IMG/VR virus record: IMGVR_UViG_3300025018_000102
Location: 1 to 64,000 of that record
Length of the DNA: 64,000 nt
Strand: one strand, 5' to 3'
From: a virus
The notes under the pieces: model-generated
What the model saw: the letters and a program-made list of their open reading frames with translations, nothing else
Databases searched by the model: none
What the model was told of the DNA's origin: nothing
Shown: piece after piece, positions 18,682 to 55,197 of the stretch
Layout: each line of letters starts with the position of its first letter
How positions within the stretch are numbered: the first letter of the stretch is position 1
Translations under genes and position numbers: made by a program

Positions 18682-18755
18682 GGGCCAATAGCTCAATCGG
18701 TTAGAGTCCTCGTCTCATAAACGAGTCGTTCTCGGTTCGAGTCCGAGTTGGCCTA
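18682..18755 (+). tRNA. tRNA with CAU anticodon (probably Ile2, otherwise elongator Met)
   Basis: GGGCCAA/TTGGCCT acceptor, GCTC D-stem, CTCGT-CTCATAA-ACGAG, CTCGG-TTCGAGT-CCGAG; lacks initiator features. Confidence 0.9.
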
Positions 18756-18775
18756 CTAAGCAAAGGGATAAGACA

Positions 18776-53734: not shown

Positions 53735-53957
53735 CCTTTGGCTGACTTGGGCACAGAACTACCCAAGGTTCTCCCTCTGGTACGTTGTTGGGCATAGGAT
53801 ACACGTGCCGGTAGTTGAACCTTACCGTGGGGTACTTGGCGGACTCCTCCAAAGCCCTCCAGTAGTCCTGATCTCCACCTGCGTCTGACAGCCATGTGAG
53901 AAAGCCTTTTGCGGCGGAATCGTCTTCAAATACGAACTGGATGGTTCTCTTGGCCAT
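53721..53957 (-). CDS. hypothetical phage protein (F..WL.D.G.QDY motif)
   Basis: GGAG RBS; 78 aa. Confidence 0.7.
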   Translation of the reverse strand: MAKRTIQFVFEDDSAAKGFLTWLSDAGGDQDYWRALEESAKYPTVRFNYRHVYPMPNNVPEGEPWVVLCPSQPKDEDE

Positions 53958-54122
53958 GGCTCTCCAAATGTCACTTGTGTTATGAGGGACCCAAGTGTAA
54001 GGCCCGAAGTTAGCGGGGAGCGTCGCATATCCGGCGACGACCCCCAGTGTTTGCAGCAGCGTGTTAGGCAGCTTTTTCTATCACTACGCAACGGCGTTTA
54101 AGATCTGCGCTCTGGGTCTAAG

Positions 54123-54216
54123 TACCCATGCCTTACCATTAGACGACAACGCCTAAGTTTGAAAAGAGCCCGGAGGCTCGGAGGCGTCGGAGGGATTCGA
54201 ACCCTCATTTTGAGCA
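54123..54216 (-). ncRNA. permuted tRNA-like module 2
   Basis: TGCTCA-AAAT-GAGGG TTCGAAT CCCTC-CGACGCC-TCC-[GAGCC TCCG GGCTC]-...-GGCGTTG-TC-GTCT AATGGTA AGGC-A-TGGGTA. Confidence 0.85.
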
Positions 54217-54287
54217 AGTTGGCGAGATCACTAGAGATGCATAGGTAGCATTTTGGGGTTTAGGTTAGAGAATAATAGGAACTTGAT

Positions 54288-54379
54288 GCTGTGCGTCTTC
54301 CAGTTCCGCCACCTCCCCTTAGTCGATCAGGAACCGAAGTTCCGGTGGGGAGGGCAGGATTCGAACCTGCAAAAACAGC
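54288..54379 (-). ncRNA. permuted tRNA-like module 1
   Basis: GCTG-TTTTT-GCAGG TTCGAAT CCTGC-CCTCCCC-ACC-[GGAAC TTCG GTTCC]-...-GGGGAGG-TG-GCG GAACTGGAAGA CGC-A-CAGC. Confidence 0.85.
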
Positions 54380-54459
54380 TTGTTGAGGAGGAGAATAAGT
54401 TTGAGCTTGTTCTCTTCTAAAGCAGGATACCGCCTCCAAAGGGCGGCCCTGCCGTAGTC

Positions 54460-55197
54460 TTACTTAGCGAGCAGGTAACTGAACACCTTGTCGCCTAGCG
54501 CTCGAGGAGAAGCCTCCACGCTGTTGGCCTGTTCGCGAGCGAACTTCACGGCCTTCTTGATGGCCTGGATACGGCCAAGGACCGTCTCCTTGCGATCGGC
54601 GGACATGGCGCCGCTGTAGCGGATGCGGGTCCAATATCCTTCGACGACGTCCTCGTGGAAGAGATCCACTTGGGCGGGGTGCTTGTCGGTAGCCTCTGCT
54701 CGAACGTGGTTCTTGGGAACCTTCTTGGTCTTGGTGGTCTCGACGGCCGCACTCTTCCAGTGATTCTGGGTTGGCGAGAACTCCCATTCCTCCGAAGGAT
54801 CGAGAGCTGGCAGCCCGCGGACGAAGGTCTCCATGTCGTTCATCTCCTTCTCCATCATGAGGAGGGTGGAGACGGGGACAGCTTCGAGAAGCACCATACC
54901 GTCTGGGAGGACAACGTCGGCCTTAGCCACCTGGTTGGTAGCGTCCTTGGTTGCCGTGAGATCCCAGATCTCTGTCTTCAGTTCGGCGGTCTTGTTGAGT
55001 AGGTCCTCCGTGGTGGCCTGGACGTTCTTGGTCTCAGCGGGGAGTTGAACGCCGTCGTCGGCGAGAGGGCGGTAGGTACGCACAAGGCCCTCAAAGACAG
55101 CAGGCTGTCCGGCGAGGCGATGAAGCTGGGTAAGATCTGAGGTGGTGCGCTTACGCGTTCCAGATTCGATTGCGAGGATTTGGTTTAGCTTTGCCAT
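54460..55197 (-). CDS. uncharacterised conserved-looking protein (MAKLNQILAIE family), candidate partner of the downstream RNA
   Basis: 245 aa, strongly biased codon usage, AAGGG RBS, own promoter; no catalytic motif recognised. Confidence 0.85.
   Translation of the reverse strand: MAKLNQILAIESGTRKRTTSDLTQLHRLAGQPAVFEGLVRTYRPLADDGVQLPAETKNVQATTEDLLNKTAELKTEIWDLTATKDATNQVAKADVVLPDGMVLLEAVPVSTLLMMEKEMNDMETFVRGLPALDPSEEWEFSPTQNHWKSAAVETTKTKKVPKNHVRAEATDKHPAQVDLFHEDVVEGYWTRIRYSGAMSADRKETVLGRIQAIKKAVKFAREQANSVEASPRALGDKVFSYLLAK

What the first reader, a model, noticed from the sequence alone, without database searches (positions are those of the whole stretch)
54154..54346. Both permuted modules keep an N-C-C tail followed by a removable-looking hairpin
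Seen: after each acceptor 3' strand comes discriminator + CC + a 5-bp tetraloop hairpin (A-CC-GGAAC TTCG GTTCC; T-CC-GAGCC TCCG GGCTC), then an 11-12 nt leader before G1. Established: in two-piece tmRNA the equivalent intervening segment is cut out by tRNA-processing enzymes to give an aminoacylatable end. Inference: processing would give a three-piece RNA with two chargeable heads. Module 1 has A73 and a Leu-like D-arm (GCGGAACTGGAAGACGC). Module 2 has G1-C72/G2-C71/C3-G70 and U73, as in tRNA-Cys. Neither has the G3-U70 Ala determinant of tmRNA.
Basis: partly seen in the sequence, partly recalled or inferred. Interest (0 to 1): 0.7.

Follow-up and report, generated by a model that had tools for sequence, protein, structure and literature searches.

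The report
Acceptor caps of a double tRNA-mimic RNA
The two "N-C-C plus hairpin" stretches are real: they cap the acceptor stems of two back-to-front tRNA look-alikes in one ~440-base phage RNA, a family that follows an unstudied protein gene (DUF7873) in many phages and bacteria. They look like pre-tRNA ends that may be cut open, but nothing here shows that they carry amino acids.

Summary
Confirmed on the minus strand. Each module runs T arm, 7-nt acceptor 3' strand, discriminator, CC, 5-bp tetraloop hairpin, 11-12 nt leader, perfectly complementary acceptor 5' strand, U8, D arm. There are 2 strict hits in the window and 0 in 200 shuffles.

These are two domains of one ~440-nt RNA just downstream of a DUF7873 gene. 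A covariance model built from other members hits the window at 60.2 bits, E 4e-18. It also hits 78/80 viral and 75/80 bacterial DUF7873 loci. The structure covaries strongly.

- **Hairpin:** it is a lineage-specific, covarying insertion. About two thirds of members have only 5-8 nt after the discriminator.
- **Tail:** conservation is partial. CCA is 55%/50% in viral copies and 32%/13% in bacterial ones; C74 is 77-100%. Real tRNA genes in the same phages show CCA 19% and C74 88%.

So the caps look like pre-tRNA ends. RNase P opening with CCA repair, as shown for M. smegmatis YrlA, is plausible (~45%). Charging is unsupported: G3:U70 is rare, acceptor pairs vary, and it is not a tmRNA.

It is absent from Rfam 15 and from the papers searched. 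This scan has already noted the same cassette 47 times in at least 41 genomes. No expression data could be obtained.

The parts
54460..55197 (-). DUF7873 protein gene (245 aa), immediately upstream of the RNA on the same strand
   Evidence: Pfam PF25283, E 3.1e-90. About 2,900 homologs. AF2 model pLDDT 88 with no informative fold match.
54015..54453 (-). Whole non-coding RNA (~440 nt): 5' hairpin, tRNA-like domain 1, scaffold helices, tRNA-like domain 2, terminal hairpin
   Evidence: ORF-poor gap between genes. No minus-strand terminator-like site between the gene and the RNA. Homologous RNA lies downstream of DUF7873 in 78/80 viral and 75/80 bacterial loci.
54422..54453 (-). 5' hairpin (GCAGGGCCGCC / GGCGGTATCCTGC, loop CTTTGGA) ahead of the A-rich hexamer-periodic tract
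   Evidence: Sequence. Family members have a hairpin at the same place, for example TGCGC-GAAA-GCGCA.
54381..54415 (-). 5' tract. AGAGAA (54415-54410) pairs with TTCTCT (54272-54267). It is followed by AAnCUn-type periodic sequence.
   Evidence: Compensatory variants: L060 AGGGAA/TTCCCT, L061 GGAGTA/TACTCC, and GGAGCG/CGCTCC in most of the family.
54371..54380 (-). Anticodon-stem-like 3' strand of domain 1 (AGCTG) plus 5-nt variable loop TTTTT
   Evidence: Pairs with CAGC at 54291-54288. The same geometry gives 5/5 bp in 34/69 and 4/5 bp in 30/69 members, against 5 and 32 in the control.
54354..54370 (-). T arm 1 (GCAGG TTCGAAT CCTGC)
   Evidence: In the family the helix is paired in 100% of cells and shows compensatory changes.
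54344..54353 (-). Acceptor 3' strand 1 (CCTCCCC), then A73, C74, C75
   Evidence: Family tally for module 1: discriminator A 81%, C74 80%, CCA 42%.
54330..54343 (-). Linker hairpin 1 (GGAAC TTCG GTTCC), inserted into the acceptor cap
   Evidence: Kept with changes in relatives: L057 GGAAC-ACCGC-GTTCC, L059 GAGAAC-TCCG-GTTCTC, L104 GCAAC-TTCG-GTTGC. Absent in L021, L061 and most of the family.
54319..54329 (-). Single-stranded leader 1 (TGATCGACTAA) ahead of G1
   Evidence: It has no complement in the tail. N-1 is A.
54293..54318 (-). Acceptor 5' strand 1 (GGGGAGG), U8 G9, and a class II, tRNA-Leu-like D arm (GCG/CGC stem, G18 G19)
   Evidence: 7/7 pairs with 54353-54347. Covaries across relatives: GGAGAGG/CCTCTCC, TGGGAGG/CCTCCCA, CGCGCGG/CCGCGCG. 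The D arm matches 19/20 positions of tRNA-Leu in L005.
54068..54253 (-). Domain 2 with its scaffold, as matched by family model R1. It includes helix P_c (TATGCA 54243-54238 with TGCGTA 54090-54085), helix P_d (GATCTCGC 54229-54222 with GCGCAGATC 54110-54102) and the conserved TTAAACGCCG (54101-54092).
   Evidence: cmsearch 60.2 bits, E 4.3e-18, model positions 1-166 of 166. P_c and P_d covary strongly in the family.
54190..54215 (-). Anticodon-stem-like 3' strand of domain 2 (GCTCA, 54215-54211), variable loop AAAT, and T arm 2 (GAGGG TTCGAAT CCCTC, 54206-54190)
   Evidence: TGGGT/GCTCA becomes TGGGC/GCCCA in L057, TGTGT/GCACA in L059 and CACAG/CTGTG in L060. In the family 5/5 bp form in 53/69 members against 11 in the control.
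54180..54189 (-). Acceptor 3' strand 2 (CGACGCC), then U73, C74, C75
   Evidence: Family tally for module 2: discriminator U 55% / G 42%, C74 97%, CCA 30%.
54166..54179 (-). Linker hairpin 2 (GAGCC TCCG GGCTC)
   Evidence: Compensatory variants: L057 GAGAC-CAAG-GTCTC, L059 GAGGC-CCAG-GCCTC.
54154..54165 (-). Single-stranded leader 2 (TTTTCAAACTTA)
54111..54153 (-). Acceptor 5' strand 2 (GGCGTTG), U8 C9, D arm 2 (GTCT AATGGTA AGGC), A26, anticodon-stem-like 5' strand TGGGT (54128-54124), and the junction strand ACTTAGACCCAGA
   Evidence: There is no 7-nt anticodon loop. TGGGT can also pair locally with ACCCA, and both pairings covary in L057 and L059.
54015..54045 (-). Terminal GC-rich hairpin with the conserved loop motif GGATATG
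   Evidence: The same hairpin and loop (GG[A/C]TA[T/C]G) are present in L057, L064 and the Streptomyces members.

Best explanation
The two N-CC + hairpin + leader stretches are the caps that close the acceptor stems of two circularly permuted, anticodon-less tRNA mimics. Both belong to one ~440-nt RNA, probably transcribed together with the DUF7873 gene just upstream.

**Shown**
- The RNA belongs to a large, covarying family tied to DUF7873.
- Each domain keeps the acceptor, D, T and anticodon stems and the bases needed for tertiary contacts. These are U8-A14, G18 G19, the T54-A58 loop, and A15:U48.
- The hairpin and leader are an insertion specific to some phage lineages, in a cap that is usually 5-8 nt long.
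- The first tail bases (N73, C74, often C75 A76), the 7-bp stem, G1 and often U-1 are conserved. This is the same pattern seen at the ends of real tRNA genes in the same phages.

**Inferred**
- The caps are handled as pre-tRNA ends. RNase P cuts 5' of G1 (54318 and 54153).
- The upstream pieces are then trimmed and repaired to CCA, as happens in M. smegmatis YrlA.
- This would leave a nicked, three-piece RNA held together by its helices.
- The RNA works with DUF7873 as a tRNA-shaped scaffold or decoy for tRNA-recognising factors, not as a tmRNA.

Charging is not part of this reading.
For: **Family membership**
- Model R1, built without the window's clade, scores 60.2 bits, E 4e-18, over its full length.
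- The same model hits 78/80 viral and 75/80 bacterial DUF7873 loci.

**Structure**
- 95.5% of cells are paired, against 75% in shuffles.
- 47/55 pairs show compensatory changes.
- The covariation score is 0.584 against 0.188 (0/500 shuffles reach it). Slid controls give about 0.11.
- Anticodon-like stems sit at tRNA geometry.

**Cap anatomy**
- The linker after the discriminator is 5-8 nt in about 2/3 of members, with a tail of 10-88 nt.
- The hairpins covary within the window's clade.

**Pre-tRNA-like ends**
- Viral copies have CCA in 55%/50%, C74 in 84%/93% and U-1 in 45%/75%. G1:C72 dominates.
- 130 real tRNA genes in the same viral loci have CCA in 19% and C74 in 88%.

**Precedent**
- M. 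smegmatis YrlA has a 7-bp closed acceptor stem. It is cut by RNase P in vitro, and in vivo it is cut, nibbled and CCA-tailed (PMC4201824; 10.1101/312249).
Against:
- CCA or CC is missing in roughly half of the family. It is missing in relatives L060 and L061, and L061 module 1 has only a 5-nt cap.
- In about a fifth of long linkers the tail pairs with the leader, which should hinder RNase P.
- In this window a stable UUCG/UCCG hairpin sits directly after C75. After RNase P cleavage it would block 3' exonucleases, so a free N-CC end needs an extra endonuclease step that nothing here demonstrates.
- N-1 is A in both modules, not the U preferred by RNase P.
- That DUF7873 binds the RNA is inferred from adjacency only.
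Confidence: 0.45

Rival explanations
1. The caps stay closed. The RNA acts as one uncut molecule, like most YrlA Y RNAs, which resemble circularly permuted tRNAs with loop-closed acceptor stems. On this reading N73-C74(-C75-A76) is a remnant of tRNA ancestry or a contact for a binding protein. The hairpin is a neutral or stabilising extension of the cap.
For: - Most members have small 5-8 nt caps.
- In some members the cap is one continuous extension helix with only the discriminator bulged, for example L135, L137, L084 and L100.
- CCA is absent in about half of the family, and in 87% of bacterial module 2.
- S. Typhimurium YrlA and D. radiodurans Yrn1 are not cleaved (PMC4201824).
- The hairpin right after C75 in the window would protect rather than expose the end.
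Against: - The acceptor stem is exactly 7 bp almost throughout, which Chen et al. name as the RNase P determinant. In ordinary YrlA its length drifts.
- C74 and the discriminator are conserved next to a hypervariable spacer, as at true tRNA gene ends.
- U-1 is enriched in module 2.
Confidence: 0.38
2. Both caps are excised, giving a three-piece RNA with two aminoacylatable CCA ends. Module 1 would be charged by LeuRS (A73, Leu-type D arm, anticodon-independent recognition). Module 2 would be charged by a U73-reading enzyme. The RNA would act on the ribosome in a tmRNA-like way.
For: - A73 is present in 81% of module 1, and a class II Leu-like D arm is found family-wide.
- From general knowledge, LeuRS does not read the anticodon.
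- CCA is present in both modules in 19/44 viral copies.
- Phage copies lie within tRNA/tmRNA gene clusters.
Against: - G3:U70 occurs in only 1/97 and 6/97 members. Pairs 2:71 and 3:70 vary freely, so there is no conserved acceptor identity set.
- Module 2 has no anticodon, although Cys/Gly-type enzymes need one (general knowledge).
- No tag reading frame with a resume codon was recognised. ARAGORN and the Rfam tmRNA models are negative or far below threshold.
- L060 has its own standard tmRNA beside the RNA.
- Tails are lost in many members.
Confidence: 0.1
3. These are true permuted tRNA genes. As in Cyanidioschyzon and some archaea, they would be circularised and re-opened to give ordinary decoding tRNAs.
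For: The gene order (3' half before 5' half, with the acceptor closed by a linker) is the same (10.1101/312249, discussion).
Against: - There is no 7-nt anticodon loop in either module. The anticodon-like stems open into conserved scaffold helices P_c and P_d that join the two domains.
- No bacterial splicing endonuclease is known (10.1101/312249).
- The two domains are always found together and next to DUF7873.
Confidence: 0.02
4. This is chance, or a DNA-level relic: tRNA gene debris or a phage attachment site carrying tRNA 3' ends.
For: Phage attachment sites often carry tRNA 3' segments (general knowledge). In Ktedonobacter an integrase gene lies next to the cassette.
Against: - 0 hits in 200 shuffles against 2 observed.
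- There is extensive compensatory covariation in ten helices.
- The RNA is conserved across phyla and phages.
Confidence: 0.01

Closest known systems
YrlA-class bacterial and phage Y RNAs (Rfam RF02553), partners of Ro60/Rsr; especially M. smegmatis YrlA (Chen et al. 2014, PMC4201824; Wang et al. 2018, 10.1101/312249)
   Same: - The order is T arm, acceptor-like stem closed by a loop, D arm. The chain ends lie in the anticodon-stem position.
- tRNA tertiary contacts are kept, including the A15:U48 / G15:C48 alternative.
- M. smegmatis YrlA has a 7-bp acceptor stem, is cut by RNase P and receives CCA. That is the processing proposed here.
   Different: - There are two tRNA-like domains on one ~400-nt scaffold instead of one in ~100-150 nt.
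- The partner gene is DUF7873, not a TROVE/Ro60 protein. No TROVE or DUF2828 gene was found in this 150-kb record.
- RF02553 does not hit the locus even at E 10.
- The acceptor stem is fixed at 7 bp, and N73-C74 is conserved family-wide.
Two-piece (circularly permuted) tmRNA of alpha-proteobacteria, cyanobacteria and some beta-proteobacteria (Rfam RF04321 and others)
   Same: The T arm plus acceptor 3' strand-CCA lies upstream of an intervening segment, which is followed by the acceptor 5' strand.
   Different: - There is no G3:U70, no recognisable tag frame and no pseudoknot series.
- A full D arm and an anticodon-like stem are present.
- The RF04321 hit covers only the T arm/acceptor part, at 21.7 bits against a cut-off of 47.
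- ARAGORN is negative.
- Relative phages carry a normal tmRNA as well.
Permuted tRNA genes of Cyanidioschyzon merolae, other algae and an archaeon
   Same: The 3' half comes before the 5' half, and the acceptor is initially closed by a linker that RNase P/RNase Z open (10.1101/312249, discussion).
   Different: Those mature into decoding tRNAs through a circular intermediate and have anticodon loops. Here the anticodon loops are replaced by junctions into a shared scaffold.
mascRNA/MALAT1-type and viral tRNA-like structures
   Same: These are tRNA-shaped elements inside larger RNAs that are recognised by RNase P and/or the CCA-adding enzyme.
   Different: They are not permuted and have a single domain at a 3' end. 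They belong to a different kingdom and context.

Membership tests
DUF7873-associated double tRNA-mimic RNA (unnamed; not in Rfam 15) | Lies directly downstream of, and on the same strand as, a DUF7873 gene | tested here: met
   PF25283, E 3e-90, for 54460-55197(-). The RNA starts about 7 nt after the stop codon.
DUF7873-associated double tRNA-mimic RNA (unnamed; not in Rfam 15) | Matches a covariance model of domain 2 plus scaffold built from other members | tested here: met
   R1 scores 60.2 bits, E 4.3e-18, model 1-166/166, at window 54253-54068(-).
DUF7873-associated double tRNA-mimic RNA (unnamed; not in Rfam 15) | Two modules in the order T arm, 7-bp capped acceptor stem, D arm, each closed by an anticodon-like stem | tested here: met
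   The anticodon-like stems are CAGC/GCTG and TGGGT/GCTCA, with covariation in relatives.
YrlA Y RNA (RF02553) | Scores at or above the Rfam gathering threshold (69 bits) | tested here: not met
   No RF02553 match at the locus at E up to 10. The best sub-threshold hits in the genome are tandem tRNA genes at 94.4-94.9 kb.
YrlA Y RNA (RF02553) | Encoded within a few kb of a Ro60/TROVE gene | tested here: not met
   No PF05731 match in the 150-kb record, and the control genomes rang. No PF11443 match either, but there the controls rang nowhere. The record is 89% complete.
YrlA Y RNA (RF02553) | T stem-loop, then acceptor-like stem-loop, then D stem-loop, with tRNA tertiary bases | tested here: met
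   U8, A14, G18 G19, T54-A58, G53:C61 and A15:U48 are all present in both modules (read from the sequence).
YrlA Y RNA (RF02553) | GNCGAAN0-1G Ro-binding motif near the 5' end | not tested
   I did not search for this motif systematically.
Two-piece / permuted tmRNA | Scores at or above threshold with the tmRNA models, or is called by ARAGORN | tested here: not met
   RF04321 scores 21.7 bits against 47. beta_tmRNA scores 13.1 against 84. ARAGORN calls nothing.
Two-piece / permuted tmRNA | G3:U70 alanine identity pair | tested here: not met
   G3-C70 in module 1 and C3-G70 in module 2. In the family, 1/97 and 6/97.
Two-piece / permuted tmRNA | Tag reading frame with resume codon and stop | tested here: inconclusive
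   Short open frames exist in the periodic tracts. An indel breaks one candidate frame in L196, and no frame ends in a tmRNA-like tag.
Two-piece / permuted tmRNA | Excision of the intervening segment and aminoacylation | not testable with these tools
   This needs RNA end mapping and charging assays.
Permuted tRNA genes (algal/archaeal type) | Intact 7-nt anticodon loop after joining the ends | tested here: not met
   The anticodon-like stems lead into scaffold helices P_c and P_d. The local loop in module 2 is 6 nt.

The most novel reading that the evidence does not exclude
Both caps are opened by RNase P and matured to CCA. At least domain 1 (A73, Leu-type D arm, recognition that does not need an anticodon) is then aminoacylated. 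That would make this DUF7873-associated RNA a new class of chargeable, multi-piece tRNA-mimic particle alongside tRNA, tmRNA and viral tRNA-like structures. It would be used by large phages and by actinobacteria, Chloroflexi and others.
Probability: 0.1. Interest if true: 0.9.

Novelty: new variant of a known kind. Interest (0 to 1): 0.62.

Why it matters
Closed-loop, circularly permuted tRNA mimics are so far known as Y RNAs bound to Ro60. Here the same trick appears twice in one larger RNA, with a different and unstudied protein. It is found in hundreds of bacterial species and in many large phages, often among the phage tRNA and tmRNA genes.

The acceptor caps examined here are where that RNA looks most like a real pre-tRNA. 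They combine a fixed 7-bp stem, a conserved discriminator and C74, frequent CCA, and a spacer of free length.

That gives a sharp, cheap experiment: map the ends at four predicted positions. The result decides whether the particle is one RNA or three. It also decides whether its ends can enter tRNA pathways such as RNase P, the CCA-adding enzyme and perhaps LeuRS. Either answer constrains what DUF7873 does.

Tried and rejected
- **DNA similarity:** blastn of the locus against cultured phage records gave no match.
- **15-mer scan:** an exact scan with GATCTTAAACGCCGT returned 35 stretches. Only one (L028, the same contig as L020) was a relative.
- **DUF7873 function:**
  - Foldseek against the PDB gave nothing at E <= 0.001. 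The weak Cas7-like rows have TM 0.10-0.15 and I do not rely on them.
  - VIA-align wide gave a best Z of 8.3, to generic helical bundles.
  - The ESM Atlas returned only DUF7873 itself.
  - The PDB sequence search, PADLOC, NCBIfam and PHROGs gave nothing.
- **Literature:** no paper holds 'DUF7873'. Searches for permuted or tandem tRNA-like RNAs in phages or Streptomyces found only the YrlA work and unrelated items.
- **Coding reading of the periodic tract:** the AAnCUn tract reads (K/N)(L/F) repeats in one frame. I considered a coding reading but did not adopt it. Part of the tract sits in helices with compensatory changes, and indels break frames.
- **Helices not found in the window:** family helices P_a (GCUGA/UCAGC) and P_b could not be found convincingly in the window's clade.
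- **Complex prediction:** Complex prediction was not used. It takes protein chains, and the open question is RNA-protein.
Full report
**1. What is at the coordinates**

The feature lies on the minus strand, in a ~500-nt gap between a 245-aa ORF (54460-55197) and a 78-aa ORF that starts at 53957.

- **Module 1:** T arm 54370-54354; acceptor 3' strand CCTCCCC; A73; CC ending at 54344; hairpin GGAAC-TTCG-GTTCC; 11-nt leader; acceptor 5' strand GGGGAGG from 54318; U8 G9; a Leu-type D arm.
- **Module 2:** the same layout. T arm 54206-54190; CGACGCC-U-CC ending at 54180; hairpin GAGCC-TCCG-GGCTC; 12-nt leader; GGCGTTG from 54153; U8 C9; D arm.

A strict search pattern finds exactly these two sites in the window and none in 200 dinucleotide-preserving shuffles. 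Both modules carry the bases needed for the tRNA elbow: U8, A14, G18 G19, the T54-A58 loop, G53:C61 and A15:U48. Module 1's D arm matches 19 of 20 positions of a tRNA-Leu(UAA) in locus L005.

ARAGORN calls nothing here. At a permissive threshold Rfam gives only a partial hit to tmRNA_permuted, 21.7 bits against a cut-off of 47. That hit covers just the T arm and acceptor.

**2. What it belongs to**

The window is part of a 150-kb viral record, 89% complete. The upstream ORF is DUF7873 (PF25283, E 3e-90). About 2,900 homologs exist in bacterial genomes and metagenomes.

Close and distant relatives all have a gene-free stretch of about 400-580 nt after the gene, holding the same two modules. An alignment-based scan returned 80 viral and 80 bacterial loci. 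My pattern finder sees exactly two modules in 113 of these 160 loci.

A 42-sequence alignment gives a consensus fold of 54 pairs, 46 of them with compensatory changes. In the explicit test:

- 95.5% of cells pair, against 75% in shuffles.
- 47 of 55 pairs show double changes.
- The covariation score is 0.584 against 0.188 (0 of 500 shuffles reach it) and about 0.11 for slid controls.

Besides the two T arms, acceptor stems and D arms, long-range helices (P_c, P_d, P_b) enclose domain 2. Each domain also has an anticodon-like stem at tRNA geometry. This stem is 5/5 bp in 53/69 members for domain 2 and in 34/69 for domain 1; the controls give 11 and 5.

A covariance model of domain 2 plus scaffold was built without the window's clade. 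It hits the window over its full length at 60.2 bits, E 4e-18. It also hits 78/80 viral and 75/80 bacterial loci. So the finding is a detail of one ~440-nt RNA (about 54453-54015) with two tRNA-like domains. It is not two independent genes.

No Rfam 15 family covers this RNA in 27 loci scanned. No paper in the library mentions DUF7873. In bacteria the gene plus RNA stands alone, without conserved neighbours. In phages it often sits among tRNA and tmRNA genes.

**3. The caps across the family**

This is the point of the finding. I tallied 97 non-redundant two-module loci.

| Feature | Module 1 | Module 2 |
|---|---|---|
| Discriminator | A 81% | U 55%, G 42% |
| C74 (next base is C) | 80% | 97% |
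| CCA | 42% | 30% |
| Linker of 5-8 nt after the discriminator | 67% (4-8 nt) | 59% |

The rest of the linkers range up to 88 nt.

Split by source:

| Source | CCA (mod 1 / mod 2) | C74 (mod 1 / mod 2) | Other |
|---|---|---|---|
| Viral (n=44) | 55% / 50% | 84% / 93% | CCA in both modules in 19 of 44; U-1 45% / 75% |
| Bacterial (n=53) | 32% / 13% | 77% / 100% | module 2 is mostly CUC or CUU |

Long linkers come in two designs. In the first, a hairpin begins right after position 75 and is followed by a single-stranded leader. The window has this design, as do L057, L104, L112 and L062. In the second, one long extension helix pairs the tail itself with the leader, as in L135, L137, L084 and L100.

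The window's hairpins are kept with compensatory changes in its clade: GAGCC/GGCTC, GAGAC/GTCTC and GAGGC/GCCTC. So they are selected structures, but lineage-specific ones. L021 and L060 module 2 have 7-9 nt linkers, and L061 module 1 has only ATCGT.

As a yardstick I collected 130 distinct real tRNA genes from the same viral loci. CCA is encoded in 19% of them and C74 in 88%. The module tails are therefore at least as tRNA-like as the ends of true tRNA genes in these phages. They also sit next to a spacer of free length and a fixed 7-bp stem, which is the signature of a processing site.

**4. How it most likely works**

The closest described objects are YrlA Y RNAs. They have a T stem-loop, an acceptor-like stem-loop and a D stem-loop. 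[quoted passage not shown]

Most YrlAs are not cut. M. smegmatis YrlA is the exception with a 7-bp acceptor stem. It is cleaved by RNase P in vitro, and in vivo it is cleaved, nibbled and given CCA (PMC4201824). The DUF7873 RNA has that 7-bp stem almost everywhere.

My best reading, at about 45%, is that the caps are opened the same way. This would give a nicked RNA of three base-paired pieces that serves, with DUF7873, as a tRNA-shaped scaffold or decoy.

The closed-cap alternative is nearly as likely, at about 38%. It is favoured by the small loops, by the members whose tails are paired, by the loss of CCA in half of the family, and by the stable hairpin directly after C75 in this window. 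That hairpin would stall 3' exonucleases.

Which steps are shown and which are inferred:
- **Shown:** the fold, the family, the cap statistics.
- **Inferred:** co-transcription, protein binding, cleavage, CCA repair.

**5. Charging**

There are five points against it.

- G3:U70 is nearly absent, at 1/97 and 6/97.
- Pairs 2:71 and 3:70 vary freely, with 46 and 55 different acceptor sequences.
- Module 2 has no anticodon.
- No tmRNA-like tag frame was recognised.
- Relatives carry an ordinary tmRNA beside this RNA (L060, tag ANNQYTPLAQAA).

What keeps the idea alive for module 1 is the conserved A73 and the Leu-type class II D arm across the family. LeuRS does not read the anticodon (general knowledge). 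I put charging of any end at about 10%.

**6. Comparison and novelty**

The RNA works like a YrlA-type tRNA mimic but fails membership. RF02553 does not hit the locus, and no TROVE/Ro60 or DUF2828 gene is in the record. It is not a tmRNA and not a permuted tRNA gene; the membership rows give the tests. I class it as a new variant of a known kind.

This scan has already met the same cassette on other DNA: 47 notes in at least 41 genomes. Follow-up agents reached the same 'double tRNA-mimic RNA with DUF7873' reading. What this report adds is the family-wide anatomy of the acceptor caps and the comparison with real tRNA gene ends.

**7. Limits**

- I have no RNA-level data.
- The DUF7873 model (pLDDT 88) has no informative structural neighbour, so the protein's role is unknown.
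- The tallies rest on my pattern finder. It requires a 7/7 acceptor stem and a canonical T loop, so it under-samples diverged members.

Noticed in passing
L002-L019 (for example L003:130-330, protein L003:307-1839): Eighteen AT-rich viral contigs share an exact 24-nt stretch (T loop to ACC) with module 1. There it belongs to a single permuted tRNA-Tyr-like RNA with an intact CUGUAAA anticodon arm, V arm, T arm, acceptor-ACCA, a 6-7 nt linker, the acceptor 5' strand and a D arm. That RNA is flanked by a covarying closing helix (AAGACTT/AAGTCTT against AGACCTT/AAGGTCT). In the contigs with a tRNA-Cys gene upstream (for example L003) it lies just upstream of a DUF2828+DUF7788 (Ro60-like) gene. 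It looks like a YrlA-type phage Y RNA, yet no Rfam family reached threshold there.
   Followed up: partly
window 54381-54409 (-) and 54254-54286 (-); family alignment A2 columns 47-90 and 193-224: Hexamer-periodic, G-poor tracts of the form AAnCUn flank domain 1. Positions 3 and 6 vary freely, so one frame reads (K/N/R)(L/F/I) repeats. Parts of the tracts sit in helices with compensatory changes (GGAGCG/CGCTCC; GCUGA/UCAGC). As ordered, those two helices would cross, which is a possible pseudoknot. I did not resolve the function or the true pairing.
   Followed up: partly
window 54111-54128 (-) with 54211-54215 (-): TGGGT after D arm 2 can pair with the upstream GCTCA (tRNA-like anticodon stem) or with the local ACCCA (6-nt-loop hairpin). 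In L057 (TGGGC; GCCCA; CCCA) and L059 (TGTGT; GCACA; CACA) all three strands change together. That hints at two alternative conformations in this clade. L060 has only the tRNA-like pairing.
   Followed up: partly
window 54015-54045 (-): The terminal GC-rich hairpin has a conserved loop motif, GG(A/C)UA(U/C)G, from this phage to Streptomyces. A plain terminator would not need a conserved loop, so it may be a protein-binding site.
   Followed up: no
viral loci L062-L141, L020, L060 (tRNA genes flanking DUF7873): Among 130 distinct phage tRNA genes only 19% encode CCA, but 88% have C at position 74. The window's own tRNA-Met (18682-18756) ends A-CUA.
   Followed up: partly
L020:3650-3712: Just after the double-mimic RNA, this relative has an extra mini tRNA-like element: acceptor-like stem GGAAGA/TCTTCC, one small hairpin and a GGTTCGAAC T arm, with no D arm. 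Normal tRNA-Ser and tRNA-Arg genes follow it.
   Followed up: no
L061:3180-3735: In one relative a Thg1-family gene (a 3'-5' nucleotide-adding enzyme that acts on tRNA 5' ends) lies about 600 nt from the RNA, on the opposite strand.
   Followed up: no
L190, L191, L199, L203: Herpetosiphon species and one Nocardia genome have a DUF7873 gene without the RNA downstream. In L093 the RNA lies about 1.2 kb downstream of the gene, on the opposite strand. The pairing is therefore very frequent but not absolute.
   Followed up: partly
G000:C1:94481-94895 (outside the window): The only sub-threshold YrlA (RF02553) hits in this phage record are tandem tRNA genes (Thr, Ala, Met). This is the dimeric-tRNA false positive that Chen et al. 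warned about.
   Followed up: yes
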